Shown here piece after piece: positions 25,583 through 49,662 of a stretch of DNA of 54,822 nt. Source of the DNA: a virus (Duplodnaviria; Heunggongvirae; Uroviricota; Caudoviricetes); the IMG/VR virus record IMGVR_UViG_2703718791_000011; one strand, written 5' to 3'. Position numbers and translations under genes: made by a program. Position 1 is the stretch's first letter. Each line of letters begins with the position of its first letter. Below the pieces are notes generated by a model, which made no database searches, was not told the DNA's origin, and saw only the letters and a program-made list of their open reading frames with translations.

Positions 25583-26224
25583 TTAATCAGGTTTAACCTC
25601 TTTATAGAGAGCCTGAATGCGACAAACCTGCGAAGTGCTGTAGCCCGTTGCATCTGCTGTTTCTCTAATGCTGAGTTTTTTTACTTGTCTGTAGTACAAC
25701 ACTTTCTGATGACGTTCCTGATCGGCCTGTTTTCCCCGGTATTTACCCAACGTATGAGCTCGTTCAATTCCCTGTTTTTGGCGTTGGCGACGACTCAGCC
25801 AGTCCTTATGCGACATCGCGGCCATCAGGTCTATAAGCATATTATTTATTGCAGTTATCACTGCGCGGGTAATCGGATCTGATTGTGAAGGATCTTTATC
25901 TGACAGGGCTTGCCATGATGTTGGAACATCCAGACTGACAATCCGCAGTTCGTGTTGTTCTATCTGCTTTTTCAGCGTTATCCAGTCGCTGTTACTCAGT
26001 CGGGTCAGGCGGTCTATCTGCTCGACCAGCAAAATATCATTACGGTGACTGTCCATCAGTAAGCGTTTCAGTTCCGGACGGTCAAGTTTTGTACCGCTTA
26101 TGTTCTCCCGATAATAACTGGCAATTTTATGCCCCCGTTCTTGGACGAACTGTTCCAGCATCTCTTTTGCTCGATCTGCAAACTGATCTTCTGTTGACGC
26201 CCTTAAATAAGCTCTGATGAACAT
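25583..26224 (-). CDS. tnpR: TnpR serine resolvase
   Basis: N-terminal MFIRAYLRASTEDQ serine-recombinase motif, C-terminal HTH; start chosen at the ATG that has a GGTGA RBS. Confidence 0.8.
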   Translation of the reverse strand: MFIRAYLRASTEDQFADRAKEMLEQFVQERGHKIASYYRENISGTKLDRPELKRLLMDSHRNDILLVEQIDRLTRLSNSDWITLKKQIEQHELRIVSLDVPTSWQALSDKDPSQSDPITRAVITAINNMLIDLMAAMSHKDWLSRRQRQKQGIERAHTLGKYRGKQADQERHQKVLYYRQVKKLSIRETADATGYSTSQVCRIQALYKEVKPD

Positions 26225-26390
26225 TTTTTCACCGCATTGTCGCATTTAGGTTGTTGCATATATTCTATCGCATATAGGTTATGTCATTATTTGTATGAGG
26301 TCACATTTTATATCTCGCATCAGGGTGTACCCTTATGCAATAACCTTTTCATCAAAAATAATGTACTAAATAATTAACAAGGATAACTAT
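26225..26390. promoter_or_regulatory. Putative res site and divergent tnpR/tnpA promoters
   Basis: AT-rich divergent intergenic region with repeated GCATATA-like motifs; position as in Tn3-family elements. Confidence 0.5.
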
Positions 26391-29378
26391 ATGGCAAGGA
26401 GGCAGATTCTTTCTCTATCGGAAAGAGAATCATTACTGGCATTGCCAGACGATGAGTTAACACTGACTCGAATGACGTATTTCAGTGAGCAGGATCTGGC
26501 AATTATCAATGCTCACCGTAAACCTGCCAGCCGGTTTGGTTTTGCCGTTCTTCTCTGTTATCTGAAAAGTATTGGGTTTGCCCCGGATAAAAAATCATCC
26601 CCACCCGCAAAATTGCTAAAAACCATTGGCGCTCGACTTAAGTTATCAGCAGAACTTTGGCAGGAATACGTTTCCGGTCGTGATACCACCAGACGTGAGC
26701 ATATGAGGGAACTTTATCGATATCTTGAACTGAAAGCCTTTAACGGTGCACTTCAGAAAGAATGTATCCGGCATCTGCTCCCTCTGTCTACCAGAACGGA
26801 CAGAGGCATACTTATCGCAGAGGAGTTACTAAAGTACCTGCATCAACAGCGAATTATTATTCCAGGCATTGATGTTCTGGAACGTACCTGTGCAGAAGCA
26901 ATGACACTGGGTGATAAAACGGTGTATACAACGCTGAATGCGCACCTTGATATCACGCATAAATCTGCGCTTGATGCCCTGTTGGTGACAAATGAAAAAC
27001 AAATATCCCGTTTGACGTGGCTGCTTCAACCTCCAGGGAAAATCAATGGAAAGAATGTCCTGCAACACATTGACCGCCTTAACGCTATTGAAGCTCTGGC
27101 GCTGCCGGAAGGAGTGGAGAGAACCGTTCACCAGAACCGATTGCTGAAACTCGCGCGTGAGGGCCGCAAAATGAGCAGTCGCGATCTGGCTGATTTTTCC
27201 CCTGCTCGTCGATACGCAACGATGGTCTGTGTACTGACTGAGGCCAGAGCCACAATCATTGATGAAATTATAGAACTGCATGAACGTATTCTAGGCAGCA
27301 TGTTCAGTCGGGCAAAACATCAGCAGGCCGAGCGTCTTCAGAAAACGGGCAAGTTGATACAGCAAAAGTTACGTCAGTATGTTTCTGTTGGCCAGGCTAT
27401 CCTGGATGCACGCAATGCAGGCGAAGATCCTCTGTCTGCTATTGAACGAGTGTTACCGTGGGACGATTTTGTCGCCAGTCTGGAGGAAACAAAGCTTCTT
27501 GCACGTAAGGATAATTTTGAGCCGCTTCATCTTATTACCGAAAAATTCAGTACATTGCGCAAATATTCTTTTCGTTTTCTATCGGCCCTGCAACTGAGAG
27601 CCACTTCGGCAGCGTTGCCGCTTAATGATGCCCTTGAAACTATTCGTGATATGTACCGTAAACAGCTACGAAAGGTTCCTGCATCGGCACCACTGGATTT
27701 CATTCCTGAGAGCTGGAGAAAGATGGTGGTCACCCCCTCAGGCATTGACCGACAATACTATGAAATTTGCGCAATGAATGAGCTAAAGGGGGCGCTGCGG
27801 GCGGGTGATATCTGGGTCAGGGGCTCCCGGCGCTACAAAAACTTTGATGATTATCTTATGCCTAACGATGATTTCGAAAAGTTATTAAATAATAACCTAT
27901 TAAATTTACCTGTTGGCACAGAATGCGGGGCTTATCTTAATGCCAGACTGACTCTACTGGCCTCCCGTCTGGAGGAAGTTAACGCAATGGCTGTCGCAGG
28001 GGAGCTTCCTGATGTGGATATTTCAGATAAAGGTGTAAAGATCACCCCACTGGATAACAGCGTTCCTTCAACAGTCTCTCCCCTGGCCGACCTGATTTAC
28101 AACATGCTACCGCACCCCAAAATTACAGAGATACTTGATGAAGTCGAGCGATGGACTGCCTTCTCGCGACATTTTACTCATCTTAAGAATCCGCTAATCC
28201 GTCCTCAGGATAATCGTTTACTACTAACCACTATCCTGGCGGACGGCATCAATCTAGGGTTGGCAAAAATGGCAGAGTCCTGTCCGGGAACCACACGAGC
28301 TTCGCTGGAAAACATACAAGCATGGTACATCCGTGATGAAACGTACTCTGCTGCACTGGCAGAACTGGTTAATGCCCAGAAGTCACGACCGCTGGCGGCA
28401 TTATGGGGAGACGGTTCCACCTCATCCTCTGACGGCCAGAATTTTAGGGTTGGCAGTCATGGGCGCTATGCCGGTCAGGTTAATTTGAAGTACGGTCAGG
28501 AACCTGGGGTGCAGTTTTATACGCATATCTCAGATCAATATAGTCCGTTTTATACCAAAGTAATCAGTCGTGTTCGTGATTCCACCCACGTACTTGATGG
28601 TCTTCTGTATCACGAAAGTGACCTTGATATAACGGAACATTACACCGATACAGCAGGTTTCACGGAGCATGTTTTTGCACTAATGCATCTGCTGGGATTC
28701 GCTTTTGCCCCAAGGATCCGGGATCTGCATGACAAACGTTTGTTTATTCAAGGTAAAGCTGATAACTATCCTGCTCTACAGTCAATTATCTCCACAACCC
28801 CCCTGAATATCAAAGAGATAAAAATACACTGGAATGAAATTCTGAGACTGGCGACCTCAATAAAACAGGGAACAGTGACCGCTTCTCTGATGCTGAAAAA
28901 ATTGGCCAGTTATCCGAAACAGAATGGCCTTGCTAAGGCGTTAAGAGAAATTGGTCGTATTGAGCGAACACTGTTCATGCTGGACTGGTTCCGCGATCCG
29001 GCGCTTCGTCGTAGGGTTCAGGCAGGTCTGAACAAAGGGGAAGCCCGGAATGCCCTTGCCAGAGCTGTCTTCATGCATCGTCTGGGAGAAATAAGGGATC
29101 GTGGTATTGAAAACCAGAGTTACCGCGCCAGTGGGCTTACGCTGCTCACTGCCGCAATCACTTTGTGGAATACCGTATATATAGAAAACGCCATTAACCT
29201 GCTGAAAAAGAAAGGGCTACATATTAATGAGCAATTGTTGTCACATTTGTCTCCGCTGGGCTGGGAGCACATTAATCTGACAGGGGACTATATCTGGAAA
29301 AACAATAAGAAGCTGGCTGAAGGGAAGTATCGTCCTTTGCGAGCAGTTGATGTCAGTCAGTACAAAAAACAGCCTTAA
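26391..29378 (+). CDS. tnpA: TnpA Tn3-family transposase (995 aa)
   Basis: Size and organisation; stop lies within the terminal inverted repeat. Confidence 0.85.
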   Translation: MARRQILSLSERESLLALPDDELTLTRMTYFSEQDLAIINAHRKPASRFGFAVLLCYLKSIGFAPDKKSSPPAKLLKTIGARLKLSAELWQEYVSGRDTTRREHMRELYRYLELKAFNGALQKECIRHLLPLSTRTDRGILIAEELLKYLHQQRIIIPGIDVLERTCAEAMTLGDKTVYTTLNAHLDITHKSALDALLVTNEKQISRLTWLLQPPGKINGKNVLQHIDRLNAIEALALPEGVERTVHQNRLLKLAREGRKMSSRDLADFSPARRYATMVCVLTEARATIIDEIIELHERILGSMFSRAKHQQAERLQKTGKLIQQKLRQYVSVGQAILDARNAGEDPLSAIERVLPWDDFVASLEETKLLARKDNFEPLHLITEKFSTLRKYSFRFLSALQLRATSAALPLNDALETIRDMYRKQLRKVPASAPLDFIPESWRKMVVTPSGIDRQYYEICAMNELKGALRAGDIWVRGSRRYKNFDDYLMPNDDFEKLLNNNLLNLPVGTECGAYLNARLTLLASRLEEVNAMAVAGELPDVDISDKGVKITPLDNSVPSTVSPLADLIYNMLPHPKITEILDEVERWTAFSRHFTHLKNPLIRPQDNRLLLTTILADGINLGLAKMAESCPGTTRASLENIQAWYIRDETYSAALAELVNAQKSRPLAALWGDGSTSSSDGQNFRVGSHGRYAGQVNLKYGQEPGVQFYTHISDQYSPFYTKVISRVRDSTHVLDGLLYHESDLDITEHYTDTAGFTEHVFALMHLLGFAFAPRIRDLHDKRLFIQGKADNYPALQSIISTTPLNIKEIKIHWNEILRLATSIKQGTVTASLMLKKLASYPKQNGLAKALREIGRIERTLFMLDWFRDPALRRRVQAGLNKGEARNALARAVFMHRLGEIRDRGIENQSYRASGLTLLTAAITLWNTVYIENAINLLKKKGLHINEQLLSHLSPLGWEHINLTGDYIWKNNKKLAEGKYRPLRAVDVSQYKKQP

Positions 29379-29865: not shown

Positions 29866-30506
29866 TGGATAAGAAAATATGCGTTGTTTCGATGAGCGTC
29901 GGCAAACCGGCGTCAATGACTGCCGCATGGATCAACAATGAGCTGATAATGGCTGAGCGGACCAGCTACCCTGAACGCCGCCGCGATATGGAACTCCAGC
30001 TGCTGCGCGAATTGCGAGAAAAAGAGGAAAAGGGTTTTATCGTGCTGGTGGAAGAGGAAAACAGCTTTATTACGGGTCGAGTTGGCCAGCGTGTAAGGTT
30101 GCGCGATCCCTTCATGAACGGCAGGCCGGTACTAATTGAAGCAATGCAGATTTACAAGGAGCTGGAACGCCAGAAAGCGATCAAGTTACCGCGCAAAGAA
30201 TCCGGCAAATACATCCTCCACCAAAGCATCTTCGATTCCGAACACGACAAAAAAGGCGATGAATTTTTCAACATCAACTGGAGCGAAATAACGACAGAGC
30301 ACGTTCTGTCGTTGTTATGCTGCTTCGCAACGGAATATAACAACGTTGCAAGCGCCGACTACATCAGGGCAATGGCTGGAGAAGTTGAGGCCCGCCAGGA
30401 ACCATCGTTACTAAGCCCTCTGATTAACATAATTCGCGGAACCCAATGTCTAGCCGACAAGCGAGTTCCTCAAGGCTTACTTACCGGCAAAGAAAACTAT
30501 TTATAA
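29866..30506 (+). CDS. mat: Mat-like protein (particle maturation), start chosen at MDKKICVV with AAGGGG RBS
   Basis: ORF 29718-30506 in track; position after ref as in P1. Confidence 0.55.
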
Positions 30507-30596
30507 TTAATTACGTCAGTAGCCAATAGAGATTTTTGTTGTGGAACAAAAATATATATTTTACAATCTAGTAACTTTGGGTGGAGGATTATTACA

Positions 30597-31637
30597 ATGA
30601 TGAATATTAAGCCGCTGAAAATTAGGAACAAGGTCATGAAGCCTCATAAAGCATCATTAAACCCTGACCTAACCGCAAGGAATGTACTTACATACAGTCA
30701 TTGGGATTTTGTCGAACTCTGGTTAAAGCGAAACGAAAAAGATGAGGCTCTTTTTTATTGGGAGCAAGCAAAAGTATTTAATCAGGCGGCCAATGGTTTA
30801 CCCAACCAATCAGCCCCACTTTTGCACTATTATTCATTCATGAATGCAGTAAAGGCGTTACTTTCATCTCGCAATATAAACTTCAAACAGCATCATGGTG
30901 TTGCTAGGGGTGAAAATGCAGCCCAAATTGATAACTTATCTGATATAAAAGTAAAAATAAAAAATGAGGGTATACTTCCGTCTTTTTCAAAATATATTGA
31001 CGGCACCTCTCATGAGGGGGTGTACAATATAAAAAACCTTTTTTCTGGATTGCCATATATTCATCGTACATATTGCCTTACTTATGATGTAACTGATGAT
31101 ATATTTATTCCACTGATCGATGCTGAGTTCGTTTTGAATGAGTCAGACAATAGCCTGTTTTTCACTGCGATTTTATCCAAGGATTTTCGGTTCGACACAG
31201 TTTTCGACATTCTACCGCCAGCGTTCGAATTGTTTGAAAGAGAAAAGTACAAAATAAAATCAGTAGAATCATTACTTGATTTTAATGAAAATCAATCGTC
31301 CAACATGCCGCAATTAACTGAATTTCATCAAAAAATAAGAAGAAATCTTTACTATATCAATGGCGCAGAGACTCTTTGGTATCTCAAACGTAAAAACAAT
31401 CAATCTGAGCATACTTCTGTTTCAATATCGCCATTGGTTATAACCCTAGCAGCTATGCATCGATTAAGTGAGCTATGTCGGTATGACCCACTTAAGCTAA
31501 GACAGTTACTAAATGAAAAAGAAAACTGGATTATTGCTGAATTTATTCAACAATCTCCGTCACAGTTTATAGATGCAATTTCATCTGAAATTACTGGACA
31601 CCAATTTCTTATCCCAAACGTAAGGTCTGCTTCTTAA
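30597..31637 (+). CDS. Cargo gene A: uncharacterised 346-aa protein, low-GC, first gene of a two-gene cassette
   Basis: ORF track; GGTGGAGG RBS; no motif I can assign with confidence (one Rx6H-like stretch SRNINFKQHH). Confidence 0.6.
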   Translation: MMNIKPLKIRNKVMKPHKASLNPDLTARNVLTYSHWDFVELWLKRNEKDEALFYWEQAKVFNQAANGLPNQSAPLLHYYSFMNAVKALLSSRNINFKQHHGVARGENAAQIDNLSDIKVKIKNEGILPSFSKYIDGTSHEGVYNIKNLFSGLPYIHRTYCLTYDVTDDIFIPLIDAEFVLNESDNSLFFTAILSKDFRFDTVFDILPPAFELFEREKYKIKSVESLLDFNENQSSNMPQLTEFHQKIRRNLYYINGAETLWYLKRKNNQSEHTSVSISPLVITLAAMHRLSELCRYDPLKLRQLLNEKENWIIAEFIQQSPSQFIDAISSEITGHQFLIPNVRSAS

Positions 31638-32146
31638 TGAATATATATATCGCATGCGCTTTAACTCATGTTCCAAGGGAAATTTTCCATGAGTACAGTA
31701 ATTGGATTCACAGCCTTGCAAAAGGTTTATCTCAAAATAACAACGTAAAATATGCTTTGATAAATAGTGACCCAGAATTATCAAAGCGCCCTGAAAGTAA
31801 CAAATCTAGACTTTGTTACATTTGGGACAGAGATATGGTTGAGAAATCTGATGTAATAATTGCAGAATGTAGTTTTCCATCAACAGGGCTAGGAATAGAG
31901 TTGCAGATTGCTGAACAGAAGAACATTCCTGTAATCATCTGTTATAAAGATTATGGGATAAATAAAACTAAAACCATTGAATACGTGAATCCAGATGAGA
32001 CTACCCATAATCTACAAGTTGGCGAGGGTTTCATTTCTCATATGGTATTAGGACTACCAAACATCCTTGATGTCATATTATGTAAAGATATTGATAACAC
32101 ATGCAGGAAGCTAAAAATACTGTTAGATATGATTAACCATAATTAA
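31637..32146 (+). CDS. Cargo gene B: 169-aa protein with nucleoside 2-deoxyribosyltransferase / DNPH1 / TIR-like flavodoxin-fold signature
   Basis: N-terminal MNIYIACALTH and core DVIIAECSFPSTGLGIELQIAEQKNIPVI resemble the NDT-family pattern with a conserved Glu; start overlaps the stop of gene A (TAATG). Confidence 0.55.
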   Translation: MNIYIACALTHVPREIFHEYSNWIHSLAKGLSQNNNVKYALINSDPELSKRPESNKSRLCYIWDRDMVEKSDVIIAECSFPSTGLGIELQIAEQKNIPVIICYKDYGINKTKTIEYVNPDETTHNLQVGEGFISHMVLGLPNILDVILCKDIDNTCRKLKILLDMINHN

Positions 32147-32164
32147 AAATTAACACCCACTTAA

Positions 32165-32200
32165 GATGTCTAAACCAGCCCGGTATTAACCGGGCTAGAC
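32165..32200. terminator. Imperfect palindrome (AGCCCGG-TATTAA-CCGGGCT) between the convergent cargo cassette and lxc/ulx
   Basis: Inverted repeat seen directly. Confidence 0.4.
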
Positions 32201-43332: not shown

Positions 43333-43465
43333 AAAGACCTCATAAGCGAATTTTTTACGCTCCAGGACAAACACCCATTCACAGCCAATACCGACTGACT
43401 CGATCCCTTTAGAAGGCACAGGATAATGCAAATCACTTGTTAGCTACGTTTCAAAGATATACATT

Positions 43466-43482
43466 ATTGCTCTAATTAATTT
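43466..43482 (+). promoter_or_regulatory. C1 operator-like site (ATTGCTCTAATTAATTT) upstream of ssb
   Basis: Consensus match. Confidence 0.5.
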
Positions 43483-43501
43483 ATTTTATTAGGTAAGATA
43501 A

Positions 43502-43990
43502 GTGGCACAACGCGGTGTAAACAAAGTCATCCTGATTGGTACCCTGGGGCAAGACCCGGAGATCAGGTATATACCAAATGGCGGAGCGGTCGGAAGACTC
43601 AGCATCGCAACGAATGAATCATGGCGCGACAAGCAAACGGGCCAACAGAAAGAGCAAACAGAATGGCATAGAGTCGTTTTGTTCGGGAAACTTGCTGAAA
43701 TTGCGAGTGAGTATTTACGAAAAGGTTCTCAGGTCTACATCGAAGGGAAACTTAAAACCCGTAAGTGGACAGATGACGCCGGTGTAGAACGTTACACGAC
43801 GGAAATTATCGTCAGCCAGGGCGGAACTATGCAAATGATCGGCGCCCGCCGCGACGATTCACAGTCCTCAAATGGCTGGGGGCAATCAAACCAACCTCAA
43901 AACCACCAGCAATACAGCGGTGGCGGCAAACCTCAGAGCAGCGCCAATAACGAACCTCCAATGGACTTTGACGACGATATTCCGTTTTAG
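43502..43990 (+). CDS. ssb: Single-stranded DNA-binding protein (GTG start)
   Basis: OB-fold SSB N-terminus, Gly/Gln-rich linker, acidic tail DFDDDIPF. Confidence 0.92.
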
Positions 43991-44025
43991 AGTTAACTTG
44001 TGAGTTATTTGTAAATAGTTCATAC

Positions 44026-44060
44026 ACAGGCCCCTGTTAATACAGGGGATTTTTATTTCT
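44026..44060 (+). terminator. Rho-independent terminator (CAGGCCCCTGT-TAATA-CAGGGGAT then T-run)
   Basis: Hairpin plus T-tract directly after ssb. Confidence 0.6.
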
Positions 44061-44238
44061 AGTAACTATAAGAGGTGTTAATTATTAATTGACAATCTTT
44101 AGTGTTTCGCGCACCTTGCAAGTATCCAATATTTACTGATTGTGGACGCATAAAGAAGATCCACAGCGTTACAAATTTGTATTTCTTTCTTCAGCAATTA
44201 AGCAGGCGACTTGCTCTATCCTGCCCAAAGGAACACGT

Positions 44239-45594
44239 ATGACACACTGCAAAGAAAATACTTGGTATGAGCGTCAAGGGTACAATACCACCCGCCCGAA
44301 TGAGATAAGGTCGGAGTATGAACGTGATCTTTCCCGGTTAATCCACTCTTCCGCTTTTAGGAGATTACAATCGAAGACGCAGGTGTTGGGATTGGGCGAA
44401 AGCGATTTCTACCGTACGCGGCTAACTCACTCTATGGAAGTAGCGCAAATTGGCGGCGGTATCTTGTCTCAGTTGTCTAAGCGCGATACAGATGAGGGGG
44501 GTAAATTCTTACCTGACCCAAGCCTGATGCAGGCTATCTGCCTTGCTCATGATATAGGACATCCCCCCTTCGGTCATGGTGGTGAGGTCGCACTAAACTA
44601 CTGCATGAGATCCTATGGCGGCTTTGAAGGTAACGGGCAGACACTGCGTATACTCTCCAAACTGGATAAGTACACCGAAACCAATGGGCTGGATCCCACC
44701 CGTAGACTTATTTTAGGCGTACTGAAATATCCAGCAAGCTATTCAGAGGTCGTCAATGAGAGGGCTTACAGCCAGTTACAGCCAAGAAGCAATGAGTGGT
44801 TGTTTAAATCATCCGAATTTAAGCCCCCGAAATGTTACCTGGACTCTGAGGAGAACACTGTTAGATTCGCACTCCAACCTTTTGATAGTGATGATGTTAA
44901 GTTATTCAAAACGGTAAAAACTACCGCGTTGAATAAGCACAAGGAAACAATATATAAAGCACTGGATACAACGATTATGGACTTGGCTGATGAGATATCC
45001 TACTCACTCCATGATCTTGAAGACGCAATTTCTCTGAAGATGATCGACAAAAAAATGTGGGAGGAGCACTTCGAGGACAAATCCCATTTATTTGCAGCTT
45101 GCCAATGCGACTCGTTTAATCTAAAAGCCGATGATGTAGCTGAAAAACTGTTCGGCGAAAGTTATCTACGCAAGGAGTGCATAGGGACACTTGTTCATCT
45201 GATGATCACTAGCGTTAAGCTTGAAGTGCAGAACTCTGATTTCAAAAGTAAAATTTTACGCTATAAAGTAGCACTTCCTGCCGCGGTAGAAGAGTTACGT
45301 AAAGCCATTTTTGAGCTGGTTAGGAACAAAGTTATTCAGCACGAAAACGTCCAACTATTAGAGTTCAAAGGTCAGAAACTGATTGTGGAACTATTCAATG
45401 TACTGGCAAATGACCCAATACGTTTTCTCCCGACAGAAACTCGAAAGAAATATAATCAAGAGGAAGCAAAAGGTGATGATAAAAAAATGCGCGTCATTTG
45501 CGACTATGTTTCAGGCATGACAGATGATTACGCTACTCGACTGTATGAGAAAATATTTGTACCGAGAAAAGGCTCTATTTTTGATAGACTCTGA
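44239..45594 (+). CDS. Dgt-family deoxyguanosine triphosphate triphosphohydrolase (HD domain)
   Basis: HD-domain motifs THSMEVAQIG and HDIGHPPFGHGGE; start chosen at MTHCKENTWYER with AAAGGAA RBS; AT-rich island. Confidence 0.8.
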   Translation: MTHCKENTWYERQGYNTTRPNEIRSEYERDLSRLIHSSAFRRLQSKTQVLGLGESDFYRTRLTHSMEVAQIGGGILSQLSKRDTDEGGKFLPDPSLMQAICLAHDIGHPPFGHGGEVALNYCMRSYGGFEGNGQTLRILSKLDKYTETNGLDPTRRLILGVLKYPASYSEVVNERAYSQLQPRSNEWLFKSSEFKPPKCYLDSEENTVRFALQPFDSDDVKLFKTVKTTALNKHKETIYKALDTTIMDLADEISYSLHDLEDAISLKMIDKKMWEEHFEDKSHLFAACQCDSFNLKADDVAEKLFGESYLRKECIGTLVHLMITSVKLEVQNSDFKSKILRYKVALPAAVEELRKAIFELVRNKVIQHENVQLLEFKGQKLIVELFNVLANDPIRFLPTETRKKYNQEEAKGDDKKMRVICDYVSGMTDDYATRLYEKIFVPRKGSIFDRL

Positions 45595-45759
45595 TTTTTT
45601 TCTATTATATAGTACGTAGCCGGGTTCCAGAACCGCATAAAATTAGATCTGGATATAATTCATTTAATTATCTGTTATATGCCAAACATAACGATATATA
45701 ATAGTGGATTAGATGTTACAACTTGACGCAGAATAAATAGCTTTTATTGGCGCATGATG

Positions 45760-45790
45760 CAAACCCCGCAATGAAGCGGGGTTTTAACTG
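45760..45790. terminator. Bidirectional terminator hairpin (AACCCCGC-AATGAA-GCGGGGTT) between convergent genes
   Basis: Inverted repeat with flanking A/T runs. Confidence 0.55.
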
Positions 45791-45801
45791 TGGTAAATGA
45801 G

Positions 45802-46170
45802 TTATAATCTTTTAATCAGGCTCTCAATATTAGTTGGTTCAAAGTAATGCTTATTAACCTCTCCATTTATGAGGAAACCGTCTTTTAGTAGTCGGTCTAG
45901 CTCACGCTCTGCTTCTTTGTTGAACATACCTGGATATATTCTCTTGTACAACTGAAACGTACCATTCATATTCCTGTAAGCATTCTCAGCAATTTCAATG
46001 GAGATTTCATTTCCGGCGTTAAATACAGGAATGAATATCTCAAGAATATCATTCTTTAACTTCTGTTTAAGTTTCTTTTTTTCAACAATATTAGAATAAA
46101 AGATACCTAAAAAAAATGTGCAGATACCAGGAAGCCAATTATTAACGAAAACCTCAGACAAAGCGTCCAC
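45802..46170 (-). CDS. Hypothetical AT-rich orphan protein (122 aa, N-terminal hydrophobic segment)
   Basis: ORF track. Confidence 0.4.
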   Translation of the reverse strand: MDALSEVFVNNWLPGICTFFLGIFYSNIVEKKKLKQKLKNDILEIFIPVFNAGNEISIEIAENAYRNMNGTFQLYKRIYPGMFNKEAERELDRLLKDGFLINGEVNKHYFEPTNIESLIKRL

Positions 46171-46376
46171 TATCTTACTCCAGAGTTAAGATTGATTCTC
46201 ATAACGCACAAACTCCGTTCAAGGCGATTTTTATATTACAAACTATACATAAACGCTGATCAATATCTCCAGATTTTGTGTGCCTGTGCATGAATATGCA
46301 CTAATCATAATCGACCAGAACTTCCGTTAATCGCTAAACTCGAACGATTCTAGCCACATAGACGATCTGTTAGTAT

Positions 46377-46685
46377 CTAATATACAAACTGATCCACATG
46401 ATCACCCAAATCATCGTCGTCGTCCTCATCGCCACCATCTACTGCTGGCCAATCAACAAACCAGCCAGCGTAAAGATGCAGCGTTCGGAGAACATCACTT
46501 GCGGGAGCATCAAGGGTGTTAACGAATCCCATATAGCTATTGGGATTTGCTCCAGCTATGGCTTCAGCGATCATGTCCTCGGTAATGTCACCGGAGATAA
46601 TGCTTAAACGCCCGGAAACTTCTTCATTATCATCAAATTCGATAATGGCATCTCCACCTAATGGCGCTGCGATTTTAATCTGCAT
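46377..46685 (-). CDS. Acidic hypothetical protein, distal gene of the darA-type operon
   Basis: ORF track; start overlaps the stop of the upstream 995-aa gene. Confidence 0.45.
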   Translation of the reverse strand: MQIKIAAPLGGDAIIEFDDNEEVSGRLSIISGDITEDMIAEAIAGANPNSYMGFVNTLDAPASDVLRTLHLYAGWFVDWPAVDGGDEDDDDDLGDHVDQFVY

Positions 46686-49662
46686 TATTTAGCTCCTTTG
46701 CCACACCTAATAACAGTTCCAGCAATCCGTCACCATTCATCAGTGATGCGGCAGCGGCCTCTTTGTCATGATACAACTGAAGAGCCATAGAGAATACTTC
46801 CGTTGCTGACGTTTTGGAAATAGTCGGTGATTTCTGCCGAATTTTCCCGGTGTTACTTACTGAGGCTGGCGGGTATACCTTCGCCATATAAATATTACTC
46901 AATCGAGATCTGAAGCACCATTCAGGCTTGCCACGCCCACCGATATTGACGAAAGATGGCTTATCCCCTTCAACATTGGCCTTCAGGAATGACCGGGCTT
47001 TCTCTAACAAACCAGGGTTACTGTACTCAAGATGATGACCCAGCTCGTGCCACAGTGCACTTGCATTTTCATCGTTCAAATTGACAGCAACAACACCATT
47101 TAGATTTGCATATGCCCTTCCCTGGTGGTGAACTACCTTTGATAAGGTCGATATTTTCCCGCCGGTCAGGCGATAAATATCAGCAAGTTCCTTGCGCAGG
47201 TCTATCCCACCATTCTGTCCAGCGCGGGCTTCTTCCACTTCTTCTGTGATAAAAGAGTCGGCCCACTCAAGAGCTTTTTCTTCAGATACGGATGAGTTTG
47301 CGATCGCACTGTTCATGGCAGATAACACTTTCTCGTGGACCGAACCCATACTTCGCTGATTCATTTGCCAGCGTGTCTGCGGGTTATATGAGAATCGCTT
47401 AAGTAGTTGGTCAAGCTGCTCAAGTTCTTCTTCACTGACATACTTTTTAGCCTCACCAATAATGCCAGGGAGAATATTGCCGTTAGGATTAAACGCTCGC
47501 GAAAGGAAGAGTTTCAGCGCCCCCATGCCCTCCGATGCTTCAATATCACCAATAACCCGGTTAACAATGGCCGCACTCTTCGGATTAGCATCCGCCAACG
47601 CTCTGGCTACAATTTGCAGGGACGATACGACCTCACGCTGCATATCCGTCCTGATCTCATCAATAAACTCTGGCGTTATGCCGTGCTCTTTAAGGATATC
47701 CCTGCCTTCCGCCGTTACCCCATCGATATCTCCGACATGTTTATTAACCCGACTTTGCAATGCCTTAAATGCCTTCAGAATTCCACGGGAATCATCCGCT
47801 TTACTAACGGCCTTCCTGAATGCTGGCAAGAAGTCTGAGTTAACCTCATTTTGTTGATCGGCCCACTGAATGGAGGCTTCTTTCATCTCGTCCAGAGTCA
47901 GATCACCCAACGCGGTATGGTCTGTGAATATGAGCGACAACCTCTGAACCATTTCTGCCAATGGTGATGCCGAATGCGCCGCGCTAAGGAATGCTTTCAC
48001 CCTGGTTGGGCGAATGGAAAACCAGTCAATAGCTGGTGGCATATCTCCGTTTTGTATCGCCTGCGCTATCTCATCAAAGCCGTCGCGCCCAAGGGAGGAT
48101 GCGTGATTTAACAATCCGCGAAGTAACGAATTGCTGATACCGAATAATCGGCACCATTTATTCACGTCGGCAACAGGCATTCGAACAAAATGCGCAAGCA
48201 CTTGTACAAGCTGTTCATCCTGGGGATCTGTGCGGGAAAGCAGCCTGATCAGATGAATAATGTCTTTGATGCCGGATGCCCGATGTAATAGCAAACTGGT
48301 ATACGGAGCAACACCGTTGTAACTACCGCCGGAAACGGACTCGAAAAGACCGCCGGATATCCCTTGCATGCCTTCGTTTTCCAGTTCCTGAGACACCTGG
48401 CGAAGGATATCCTGTAACGACACATCGCCGCCGCCAAACATATCCCCGAGCGCCTGGCCCTGGTGCTGTAACTCATCATTGATACGTTGCGCCATCAACT
48501 TAAAGGCGGTGGCCATACGCTTCGCGCTACGGTTATTCGCGACGATGAACAACGCGAGTGCTTTCACTTCCGGGGCCGTTTCGCTGAACATATCCCCCTG
48601 AGCAATAACATCGGTAATATGCTGGCCTGACTCCTTCGATTGCCTTACCAGGTCTACCGCATCTTTCAATGCCGCCAGCGCCTTTTTATCGAGGCTATCC
48701 GCTGTCTCAATGCCATCAACAATAGTTGTCACAGCCTGCTTGTGCGCTTCTCCTGACAAAGCCTGCATCTGGACAAAATCATTGGCTGCCGCATTAAGCG
48801 CCGTCAGAACATTACGCATATCCGGATCAGGTTCTTCTGCAACCATCCTTACCAGGCGCGCATCCTTATATGCCTTGGCAAAGATCGCGTTTTGTATACG
48901 GTCTACAAGTTGCCGTGTTGGTCGCCCATCTTCAGTTACAAGGCCAGCCGCCTGTGTGGCACCAACTTGCGTCATAAATCCGCGAATAAACGCGTCATTA
49001 CTGCGGCTAAGCAGATCTCCGCTTTCTGACGGGTTAAAAAGCGCCATCATCGCCGGTGTTATGCTGTCGGCATCAACAAAAGCCTTTTCACTGGCTGCCA
49101 TTTCCTGAAGATCAGAAATATTTGAGTCCTTGGCAAACTGAACGCGGTCAACCTTAGTTAACCGGCGGCGCACCAGTACCGGAGCCGTCATTGATTCAAC
49201 CTTTTCAGGTCGTATGCCGAATTCGGTCGCATGATCAATCAGGTACTCACGATACCGATCCGCATTGCCGTCCTGATAGGCTTTAATGATCCCCATGGTC
49301 CGTCCATTACCTGACTCAACGGCATTGTCCTCACCAATTATCGGCGCGCCATGGCTGGATAGACCGGAATCGGTAAGCTGAGCAGGCCGCAAATCCTTGG
49401 ATATCTGGTTAACCTGAAGAAGGCTGGATGCGCGGGTCCGGTCGCGCGGTTGAAGTTCCTGGGGATAGTCAGGATTAATTTTCCCATCCAGAGTATTGGA
49501 TACCAAAAGAGCTGAGGCATCGACGATATCAAACGCTGTTTTTACCTCGTCTCCCTTCGCTGTCACCACATACGAAACCCGCCCATAATCGGGCAAGTTC
49601 TTTAGCAGCTCGATCAGCGTTTCTATGCTGGTGGCCATTACCACCTGATCGCTTAAGCTCAT
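46675..49662 (-). CDS. ddrB: DdrB-like large antirestriction/head-associated protein (995 aa)
   Basis: Size and position downstream of darA/ddrA, as I recall the P1 darA operon. Confidence 0.6.
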   Translation of the reverse strand: MSLSDQVVMATSIETLIELLKNLPDYGRVSYVVTAKGDEVKTAFDIVDASALLVSNTLDGKINPDYPQELQPRDRTRASSLLQVNQISKDLRPAQLTDSGLSSHGAPIIGEDNAVESGNGRTMGIIKAYQDGNADRYREYLIDHATEFGIRPEKVESMTAPVLVRRRLTKVDRVQFAKDSNISDLQEMAASEKAFVDADSITPAMMALFNPSESGDLLSRSNDAFIRGFMTQVGATQAAGLVTEDGRPTRQLVDRIQNAIFAKAYKDARLVRMVAEEPDPDMRNVLTALNAAANDFVQMQALSGEAHKQAVTTIVDGIETADSLDKKALAALKDAVDLVRQSKESGQHITDVIAQGDMFSETAPEVKALALFIVANNRSAKRMATAFKLMAQRINDELQHQGQALGDMFGGGDVSLQDILRQVSQELENEGMQGISGGLFESVSGGSYNGVAPYTSLLLHRASGIKDIIHLIRLLSRTDPQDEQLVQVLAHFVRMPVADVNKWCRLFGISNSLLRGLLNHASSLGRDGFDEIAQAIQNGDMPPAIDWFSIRPTRVKAFLSAAHSASPLAEMVQRLSLIFTDHTALGDLTLDEMKEASIQWADQQNEVNSDFLPAFRKAVSKADDSRGILKAFKALQSRVNKHVGDIDGVTAEGRDILKEHGITPEFIDEIRTDMQREVVSSLQIVARALADANPKSAAIVNRVIGDIEASEGMGALKLFLSRAFNPNGNILPGIIGEAKKYVSEEELEQLDQLLKRFSYNPQTRWQMNQRSMGSVHEKVLSAMNSAIANSSVSEEKALEWADSFITEEVEEARAGQNGGIDLRKELADIYRLTGGKISTLSKVVHHQGRAYANLNGVVAVNLNDENASALWHELGHHLEYSNPGLLEKARSFLKANVEGDKPSFVNIGGRGKPEWCFRSRLSNIYMAKVYPPASVSNTGKIRQKSPTISKTSATEVFSMALQLYHDKEAAAASLMNGDGLLELLLGVAKELNNAD

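What the first reader, a model, noticed from the sequence alone, without database searches (positions are those of the whole stretch)
44000..46376. Second AT-rich cargo island: Dgt-family dGTPase plus convergent orphan ORF between ssb and the darA-type operon
A 451-aa HD-domain protein with the diagnostic dGTPase motifs (HSMEVAQIG, HDIGHPPFGHGGE) sits in an AT-rich insert framed by two terminators (44026-44060 and 45760-45790), with a convergent 122-aa AT-rich ORF beside it. dGTP-depleting dGTPases are an established anti-phage mechanism; carriage by a phage-plasmid suggests superinfection exclusion. I do not remember this gene as part of the P1 backbone.
Basis: partly seen in the sequence, partly recalled or inferred. 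Interest (0 to 1): 0.6.

Follow-up and report, generated by a model that had tools for sequence, protein, structure and literature searches.

The report
Known anti-phage dGTPase cargo in P1-like plasmid
A P1-like phage-plasmid carries, in a known swap-in slot between its ssb and hxr genes, a well-annotated anti-phage enzyme that destroys the DNA building block dGTP, plus an unrelated small gene of unknown function; this is real but already described.

Summary
The window is a P1-like phage-plasmid. A 2,386-bp block (43991-46376) replaces the whole gap between the stop codons of ssb and hxr. P1 has isaA-IS1-isaB there and P7 has a porin gene.

The block encodes an intact 451-aa HD-domain dGTPase (44239-45594). 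It passes NCBI's curated "antiphage_dGTPase" model (571 bits, cutoff 400) and the PADLOC dGTPase model. It is 80% identical to the chromosomal E. coli type that is 99% identical, over the 399 nt available, to the experimentally validated G177 gene. It is about 58-60% identical to the validated Shewanella Sp-dGTPase (PDB 9P8W), and all catalytic residues are present. It is not an orthologue of housekeeping E. coli Dgt.

The same block, at 99% identity or more, sits on plasmids in 64 of 5,426 complete E. coli genomes. That is about 13% of those with the P1-like backbone. RefSeq already names the protein "anti-phage deoxyguanosine triphosphatase", and a 2025 survey reports dGTPase as common in E. 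coli P1-like phage-plasmids.

The 122-aa ORF is a real gene under purifying selection. It belongs to a narrow orphan family found alone on other mobile islands, never beside a dGTPase. It is therefore an independent passenger.

Verdict: correct interpretation, already known, low interest.

The parts
43466..43482 (+). C1 repressor operator (Op-ssb/Op21 type) controlling ssb; the only C1-operator match near the locus, with none inside the insert
   Evidence: One mismatch to ATTGCTCTAATAAATTT. It sits at the position of the annotated Ossb in P1 and P7.
43502..43990 (+). ssb, P1 backbone gene and left border of the cargo slot
   Evidence: Pfam SSB, 137 bits. It is 97.8% identical at nucleotide level to P1 ssb, and homology ends at the stop codon.
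43991..46376 (.). Cargo block that replaces the whole ssb-hxr intergenic space
   Evidence: No similarity to P1 or P7 between the two stop codons. The block is present at 99% identity or more in 52 PLSDB plasmids, 64 complete E. coli genomes and 1 phage record. GC is 39.8%.
44031..44058 (+). Intrinsic terminator after ssb: a 7-bp G+C-rich stem followed by a T-run. It insulates the dGTPase gene from C1-controlled ssb transcription.
   Evidence: Terminator scan. Fold gives -12.9 kcal/mol, z -3.8.
44239..45594 (+). Anti-phage dGTPase (HD-domain dNTP triphosphohydrolase), 451 aa. Metal and catalytic residues are H64, H104-D105, H113, E116 and D251.
   Evidence: NCBIfam NF041026, 571 bits (cutoff 400). 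PADLOC dGTPase, 493 bits. Pfam HD and HD_assoc. PDB 9P8W at 530 bits. 80% identity to the G177-type enzyme. dN/dS 0.12. AAGGA lies 7-8 nt before the ATG.
45699..46226 (-). ORF122 module (terminator hairpin, ORF and ribosome-binding site), homologous as a unit to chromosomal islands that lack any dGTPase
   Evidence: 78.5% nucleotide identity to 80-odd E. coli chromosomes over exactly this span.
45761..45788 (.). Bidirectional hairpin between the convergent dGTPase and ORF122 genes
   Evidence: Fold gives -17 kcal/mol on both strands, z -3.3 and -4.0. The hairpin is retained, with altered stem and loop sequence, in the chromosomal ORF122 locus.
45802..46170 (-). ORF122: a 122-aa protein of a narrow orphan family, with a moderately hydrophobic N-terminal helix, a KKKLKQKLK stretch and a helical C-terminal part. 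Function unknown.
   Evidence: 34 homologues at 55-99% identity with an invariant KLKNDILEIFIPVFN core. dN/dS 0.10. No Pfam, NCBIfam or PADLOC hit. PHROG 26730, unknown function. AlphaFold2 pLDDT 72, all-helical.
46242..46271 (-). Promoter-like site upstream of ORF122 (TGGAGA-18-TATAGT); weak evidence only
   Evidence: Consensus scan, 9 of 12 matches. The region holds no more such sites than shuffled sequence.
46377..46685 (-). hxr, P1 backbone gene and right border of the cargo slot
   Evidence: 97.9% identical at nucleotide level to P1, and homology resumes at the stop codon.
46675..49662 (-). ddrB, part of the P1 dar/ddr anti-restriction operon
   Evidence: 995-aa ORF. P1 annotation.

Best explanation
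The block is accessory cargo in a recombination-exchangeable slot of a P1-like phage-plasmid. Its main gene is a stand-alone defence dGTPase of the Sp-dGTPase / E. coli G177 clade.

Proposed mechanism: in the lysogen the enzyme is made independently of the C1-controlled lytic programme. When another phage infects, the enzyme hydrolyses dGTP to deoxyguanosine plus triphosphate. This starves the invader's DNA replication and protects the host and its resident P1-like plasmid.

Shown here: family membership, intact catalytic residues, purifying selection, position in a variable slot, a terminator after ssb and no C1 operator in the insert.

Inferred from characterised relatives: enzyme activity, expression in lysogeny, what triggers the enzyme and which phages it acts on.

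ORF122 is a separate, independently acquired passenger gene. It is probably a small protein with an N-terminal membrane-associating helix, and its role is unknown.
For: Family assignment:
- NF041026 antiphage_dGTPase scores 571 bits (cutoff 400), and NF003701 scores 562 (cutoff 383). The PADLOC dGTPase model scores 493 bits.
- The best solved structure is 9P8W (530 bits). That is Shewanella putrefaciens dGTPase, which hydrolyses dGTP on its own in vitro and protects against phage (PMC12265719; Tal et al. preprint 10.1101/2021.04.26.441389).
- Identity to Sp-dGTPase is 58-60%, above the 45% clade of Tal et al., in which 53% of members lie next to defence systems.
- Identity is 80% to the chromosomal E. 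coli enzyme whose gene is 99% identical, over the 399 nt available, to the G177 gene marked 'Validated experimentally'.
- H64, H104-D105, H113, E116 and D251 are present, and dN/dS is 0.12.

Cargo status:
- Homology to P1 and P7 breaks exactly at the ssb and hxr stop codons.
- At least five different cargoes occupy this slot.
- 64 of 480 backbone-positive E. coli genomes carry this block.

Regulation:
- There is a terminator after ssb. The only nearby C1 operator is the one for ssb.

Prior reports:
- DefenseFinder-based survey of P1-like phage-plasmids, and the RefSeq name.

ORF122 independence.
Against: - No experiment exists on this allele, and its closest tested relative is 80% identical.
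- No convincing sigma-70 promoter was found upstream of the gene (and manual reading). Only about 60 nt upstream are shared with the chromosomal type. Expression in lysogeny is therefore an assumption.
- A constitutively active dGTPase should also hamper P1's own lytic replication. How the element tolerates it is unexplained.
- In one phage record the gene carries two 1-nt deletions. This could be sequencing error or evidence that the gene can be lost without harm.
Confidence: 0.85

Rival explanations
1. The dGTPase and ORF122 form a two-gene system, with ORF122 acting as sensor, regulator or antidote of the enzyme, by analogy with Clover CloA-CloB. For example, ORF122 could switch the enzyme off during P1 lytic growth.
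For: - The two genes always occur together on P1-like plasmids: 64 plasmid places for each.
- ORF122 lies co-directionally downstream of the dar/ddr operon genes ddrB and hxr, with no detectable terminator in between.
- Transcription reading through from that operon could therefore both express ORF122 and run against the dGTPase gene.
Against: - The co-occurrence reflects one acquisition (99% identity or more), not independent associations.
- The genes are convergent, so they are not an operon.
- ORF122 homologues sit alone in eight other contexts with no dGTPase within 6-8 kb.
- The G177-type chromosomal dGTPase locus has no ORF122.
- The ORF122 module, with its own hairpin and ribosome-binding site, is homologous as a unit to chromosomal islands.
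- Sp-dGTPase works alone.
- ORF122 has no nucleotidyltransferase or any other known domain.
Confidence: 0.06
2. The enzyme serves the phage-plasmid's own nucleotide economy or replication fidelity, a housekeeping Dgt-like role, rather than defence.
For: - It belongs to the same HD triphosphohydrolase superfamily as E. coli Dgt (TIGR01353, 373 bits).
- It sits next to ssb, a replication gene.
- Tal et al. note that more distant homologues may be housekeeping.
Against: - Every housekeeping equivalog model scores far below its cutoff, for example PRK04926 E. coli Dgt at 143 bits against 405.
- The gene is absent from 87% of P1-like backbones, so it is dispensable.
- Its close relatives were shown to defend.
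Confidence: 0.06
3. The gene is an inactive or decaying passenger with no current function.
For: - In phage vB_EcoM-673R5 the gene is split by two 1-nt deletions.
- A few plasmid records lack the dGTPase annotation.
- No clear promoter was found.
Against: - Here the ORF is intact, with all catalytic residues, and dN/dS is 0.12.
- The exact protein sequence is seen on at least 1,000 contigs.
- The 673R5 record also splits ddrB, which suggests sequencing errors.
Confidence: 0.03

Closest known systems
Defensive dGTPases of Tal et al. [quoted passage not shown]
   Same: - Same single-gene architecture (HD plus HD_assoc).
- Same catalytic residues.
- 58-60% identity to Sp-dGTPase and 80% to the G177 type.
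- Passes NF041026 and the PADLOC dGTPase model.
   Different: - Carried by a P1-like phage-plasmid in the ssb-hxr slot, rather than in a chromosomal island or type I restriction-modification operon.
- This allele is itself untested.
E. coli housekeeping Dgt (PDB 4X9E/6OIY; target of T7 Gp1.2)
   Same: HD-domain dGTP triphosphohydrolase superfamily, with the same metal-binding motif.
   Different: - Only local similarity: 88 bits, covering residues 13-124.
- The PRK04926 model scores 143 bits against a cutoff of 405.
- Tal et al. give 24% identity between Dgt and Sp-dGTPase.
Clover (CloA dGTPase plus CloB nucleotidyltransferase; PMC12265719)
   Same: CloA is a related HD dGTPase that depletes dGTP.
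   Different: - CloA chains match weakly (82-89 bits).
- Clover needs an adjacent nucleotidyltransferase and is octameric and signal-regulated.
- No nucleotidyltransferase is present here.
Vibrio octameric dGTPase Vdg (PMC13519002; presumed to be PDB 9VWA/9VWC, not confirmed here)
   Same: Anti-phage dGTPase.
   Different: The presumed Vdg chains are only distant matches (152-156 bits, two stretches, 402 aa). This is a different subfamily with a different oligomeric assembly.
Variable ssb-hxr region of P1-group phages (P1 isaA-IS1-isaB; P7 nmpC porin; SJ46 Tad2-like protein)
   Same: Same slot and same borders at the stop codons of two convergent backbone genes. The slot has low G+C, as described for P1 variable regions.
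   Different: The cargo content differs. No insertion sequence, attachment site or flanking repeats mark this block.

Membership tests
Anti-phage dGTPase (NCBIfam NF041026 / PADLOC dGTPase / Sp-dGTPase clade) | Full-length match above the curated family cutoff | tested here: met
   NF041026 scores 571.4 bits against a cutoff of 400, covering profile positions 1-425 of 425. PADLOC PDLC02374 scores 493 bits.
Anti-phage dGTPase (NCBIfam NF041026 / PADLOC dGTPase / Sp-dGTPase clade) | HD domain plus C-terminal HD-associated domain in a single polypeptide of about 450 aa | tested here: met
   PF01966 HD covers residues 61-134 and PF13286 HD_assoc covers 345-437.
Anti-phage dGTPase (NCBIfam NF041026 / PADLOC dGTPase / Sp-dGTPase clade) | Metal-binding H...HD...D residues and the catalytic H/E dyad (D101 of Sp-dGTPase is essential for defence) | tested here: met
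   H64, H104-D105, D251, H113 and E116 align with identical residues of 9P8W. The D101A requirement comes from Tal et al..
Anti-phage dGTPase (NCBIfam NF041026 / PADLOC dGTPase / Sp-dGTPase clade) | At least 45% identity to Sp-dGTPase, the criterion of Tal et al. for the defence-associated clade | tested here: met
   260 of 436 aligned positions are identical. That is 59.6%, or 57.5% counting gap columns. Table S2 of Tal et al. lists E. coli and E. albertii genes of the same 1,356-nt length at 57.2%.
Anti-phage dGTPase (NCBIfam NF041026 / PADLOC dGTPase / Sp-dGTPase clade) | Hydrolysis of dGTP to deoxyguanosine plus triphosphate | not testable with these tools
   Shown for Sp-dGTPase only.
Anti-phage dGTPase (NCBIfam NF041026 / PADLOC dGTPase / Sp-dGTPase clade) | Protection against phage infection | not testable with these tools
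   The closest tested relative is the E. coli G177 enzyme. Identity is 80% to the chromosomal type that matches the G177 fragment at 99%.
Housekeeping Dgt (E. coli dgt orthologues, NF003429/PRK04926) | Match above the equivalog cutoff | tested here: not met
   142.8 bits against a cutoff of 405. All other dGTPase equivalog models also fall below their cutoffs.
Clover (CloA-CloB) | Adjacent Pol-beta-type nucleotidyltransferase gene (CloB) in an operon with the dGTPase | tested here: not met
   The only neighbour, ORF122, is convergent and has no domain match. CloA chains match at only 82-89 bits.
P1 core backbone gene | Present at this position in P1, P7 and most P1-like elements | tested here: not met
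   Absent from P1, P7, SJ46 and 813R1. Present in 64 of 480 backbone-positive E. coli genomes.

The most novel reading that the evidence does not exclude
ORF122 may belong to an undescribed family of stand-alone phage-exclusion, defence or anti-defence genes.

- The family is narrow and has no annotation: only 13 representative clusters among 1.84 billion proteins.
- Its members recur as single genes in defence-island-like and mobile-element neighbourhoods.

In this element ORF122 sits directly downstream of hxr and ddrB on the same strand. Transcription reading through from those dar/ddr operon genes could therefore express ORF122 and also run head-on against the dGTPase gene. That would offer a way to damp the enzyme while P1 replicates lytically.
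Probability: 0.15. Interest if true: 0.45.

Novelty: already known. Interest (0 to 1): 0.15.

Why it matters
This is a clear, well-bounded case of a temperate phage-plasmid carrying a nucleotide-depletion defence gene in an exchangeable cargo slot. It fits the established picture that prophages and phage-plasmids spread defence systems among Enterobacteriaceae. About 13% of E. coli P1-like elements carry this block, so it may affect phage-therapy outcomes in such strains.

Nothing here changes current understanding. Three questions remain open:
- How does a P1-like phage tolerate its own dGTPase during lytic growth?
- What drives expression of the gene?
- What does the small ORF122 family do?

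Tried and rejected
- ORF122 domain searches found nothing in Pfam, NCBIfam or PADLOC. PHROGs gave only an 'unknown function' family.
- A profile search of ORF122 against 1.84 billion representative proteins found 13 hits, all the same small family or fragments of it. There were no fusions and no distant relatives.
- A repeat search across the insert found only 12-15 nt chance-level pairs. There was no target-site duplication, no terminal inverted repeats and no attachment-like site. Exchange by homologous recombination in the flanking genes is therefore the default inference.
- The promoter scan found no consensus sigma-70 promoter upstream of the dGTPase gene. A TTGACA at 44089-44094 lacks a usable -10 element.
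- Rfam found nothing meaningful in 43400-46800.
- PADLOC on the alternative cargoes of this slot (P1 isaA and isaB, SJ46, 813R1) gave no hits. Pfam gave only Tad2-like for one SJ46 protein.
- ORF122 as a transmembrane protein: the peak Kyte-Doolittle 19-residue hydropathy is 1.39, below the classical 1.6 threshold. I therefore call it only a possible membrane-associating helix.
Full report
**What is there.**
The window is a P1-group phage-plasmid. The backbone genes around the finding are:
- ssb at 43502-43990(+), preceded by a C1 operator at 43466-43482;
- hxr at 46377-46685(-);
- ddrB at 46675-49662(-).

They are 97-98% identical to P1 and P7. Between the stop codons of ssb and hxr lie 2,386 bp (43991-46376) with no similarity to P1 or P7. 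The alignments break exactly at the two stop codons.

The block contains, in order:
- a hairpin with a T-run right after ssb (44031-44058; -12.9 kcal/mol, z -3.8);
- a 451-aa ORF at 44239-45594(+), with AAGGA 7-8 nt before the ATG;
- a hairpin at 45761-45784 that folds at about -17 kcal/mol on both strands;
- a 122-aa GTG-initiated ORF at 45802-46170(-).

GC is 39.8% for the block against 47.7% for the window. It is uneven: 49% in the first 560 nt of the large gene, 39% in the rest of that gene, and 34% in the small ORF. One refinement is that the small ORF is convergent with the large gene but co-directional with hxr and ddrB.

**The large gene.**
- Pfam finds HD and HD_assoc domains.
- NCBIfam NF041026 'antiphage_dGTPase' scores 571 bits against a cutoff of 400.
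- Every housekeeping dGTPase equivalog model falls far below its cutoff. E. coli Dgt PRK04926 scores 143 against 405.
- The PADLOC dGTPase model scores 493 bits.
- The best solved structure is 9P8W at 530 bits. According to PMC12265719 this is the Shewanella putrefaciens CN-32 dGTPase. It is a hexamer that hydrolyses dGTP on its own and protects against phage.
- From the printed alignment, identity is 260 of 436 aligned positions.

Tal et al. (preprint 10.1101/2021.04.26.441389) showed three things for this enzyme. It depletes dGTP during T7 infection. A D101A change abolishes defence. T7 escape mutants map to gene 5.7 and gene 0.7, whose products modify host RNA polymerase. Tal et al. also defined a clade at 45% identity or more, in which 53% of members lie next to defence systems. 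Their Table S2 lists E. coli and E. albertii genes of the same 1,356-nt length at 57.2% identity, and marks the E. coli G177 enzyme as experimentally validated.

The 399-nt fragment of the G177 gene given in their Table S5 matches ten E. coli chromosomes at 97-99%. The full-length protein from one of these chromosomes is 80% identical to the window's protein. The catalytic and metal-binding residues H64, H104-D105, H113, E116 and D251 are all present, and dN/dS against the chromosomal type is 0.12. The membership tests that can be run on sequence are all met. Enzyme activity and phage protection by this allele are inferred.

**Is it P1 backbone?**
It is not. Four other cargoes occupy the same gap:
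- P1 carries isaA-IS1-isaB.
- P7 carries an nmpC porin gene.
- SJ46 carries two other genes, one with a Tad2-like anti-Thoeris domain.
- vB_EcoM-813R1 carries two unannotated genes.

The hxr-ddrB backbone occurs in 480 of 5,426 complete E. coli genomes. The dGTPase block occurs in 64 of them, always on plasmids of roughly P1 size and at 99% identity or more. It is also in 52 PLSDB plasmids, including E. albertii and E. fergusonii, and in one phage record.

No flanking repeats or insertion-sequence ends mark the block. Exchange by homologous recombination within the conserved flanking genes is the simplest inference. A 2019 comparison of P1-like plasmids had already noted that variable regions cluster at a few low-G+C loci (PMC6906374).

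**Already known.**
- RefSeq annotates the gene as 'anti-phage deoxyguanosine triphosphatase'.
- The exact protein is seen on at least 1,000 contigs under that name.
- PHROGs holds both proteins as families of unknown function.
- A DefenseFinder survey of 1,592 P1/D6 sequences states that E. coli P1-like phage-plasmids commonly carry dGTPase or CapRel systems (bioRxiv 10.1101/2025.09.12.675607).

**The small ORF.**
It is a real gene.
- It has 34 homologues at 55-99% identity in Escherichia, Salmonella, Enterobacter, Yersinia, Vibrio, Marinomonas and Rheinheimera. They share an invariant KLKNDILEIFIPVFN core.
- dN/dS against an E. coli chromosomal copy is 0.10.
- The family is tiny: 13 representative clusters among 1.84 billion proteins, with no fusions.
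- It has no known domain.
- The N-terminal helix is moderately hydrophobic (peak 1.39) and is followed by KKKLKQKLK.

In eight other contexts it is a lone gene, with no dGTPase within 6-8 kb:
- an E. coli island with a large DEAD/DEAH helicase and insertion sequences;
- a Salmonella/E. coli island with anti-restriction, DUF1281 and Eco57I-type methylase genes;
- a Yersinia locus with a giant LPD/MuF protein;
- a Vibrio locus with Mrr, T5orf172 and HNH genes;
- an Enterobacter plasmid;
- a Rheinheimera locus next to an IS66 transposase;
- a Marinomonas locus next to a 5'-nucleotidase gene;
- a rearranged version of the E. coli island.

The G177-type dGTPase locus in turn has no ORF122. The segment from about 45699 to 46226 comprises the hairpin, the ORF and its ribosome-binding site. 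It is homologous as a unit (78.5%) to the E. coli chromosomal locus, and the hairpin is kept there despite sequence changes. By contrast, only about 60 nt upstream of the dGTPase gene resemble the chromosomal dGTPase locus. The block is thus a mosaic of two independent modules. The second 'terminator' belongs to the ORF122 module.

**Mechanism.**
Most likely (0.85) the enzyme is a stand-alone nucleotide-depletion defence. The resident prophage-plasmid expresses it, and it removes dGTP when another phage infects. The terminator after C1-controlled ssb, and the lack of any C1 operator in the block, fit expression uncoupled from the lytic programme. No good promoter was found, however.

Three things remain unexplained:
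- what triggers the enzyme;
- how P1 tolerates it during its own replication;
- what ORF122 does.

Three rivals are each unlikely, for the reasons given in their entries: a two-gene system with ORF122, a housekeeping role, and a decaying passenger.

**Verdict.**
The feature is already annotated and published, so it is ordinary and of low interest. The only open lead is the orphan ORF122 family.

Noticed in passing
window 30597-32146 (+), within the AT-rich stretch ~30500-32200: This is another low-GC island (35-41% GC). It encodes a 346-aa YaaC-like protein (PF14175, 158 bits). A 169-aa ORF follows with a 1-nt overlap and has a sub-threshold nucleoside 2-deoxyribosyltransferase-like match (22 bits, cutoff 28.8). 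Neither has a PADLOC hit. It looks like a candidate two-gene cargo module.
   Followed up: partly
window 25583-29378: A Tn3-family transposase lies at 26391-29378(+) (DDE_Tnp_Tn3, 491 bits). A divergent serine resolvase lies at 25583-26245(-). This indicates a transposon insertion in the phage-plasmid.
   Followed up: no
L017:1121-1966 (Salmonella phage SJ46, same ssb-hxr slot): The SJ46 cargo in this slot includes a protein with a Tad2-like anti-Thoeris domain (PF11195, 79.6 bits). The same slot therefore carries defence genes in some P1-like elements and anti-defence genes in others.
   Followed up: partly
L001 (phage vB_EcoM-673R5, ON470615.2), positions equivalent to window 44496 and 44563: The otherwise identical dGTPase gene has two single-base deletions there and is annotated as two CDS. 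ddrB is also split in that record. Sequencing error is as likely as true pseudogenisation.
   Followed up: partly
window 46171-46376 (-): No terminator is detectable between hxr and ORF122. ORF122 may therefore be transcribed by read-through from the ddrB and hxr genes as well as from a weak promoter-like site at 46271-46242.
   Followed up: partly
L010:4889-6396 (Marinomonas sp. BSi20584): The Marinomonas ORF122 homologue lies immediately downstream of a 5'-nucleotidase gene (PF06189). This is a single anecdotal link to nucleotide metabolism and is not seen in the other contexts.
   Followed up: no
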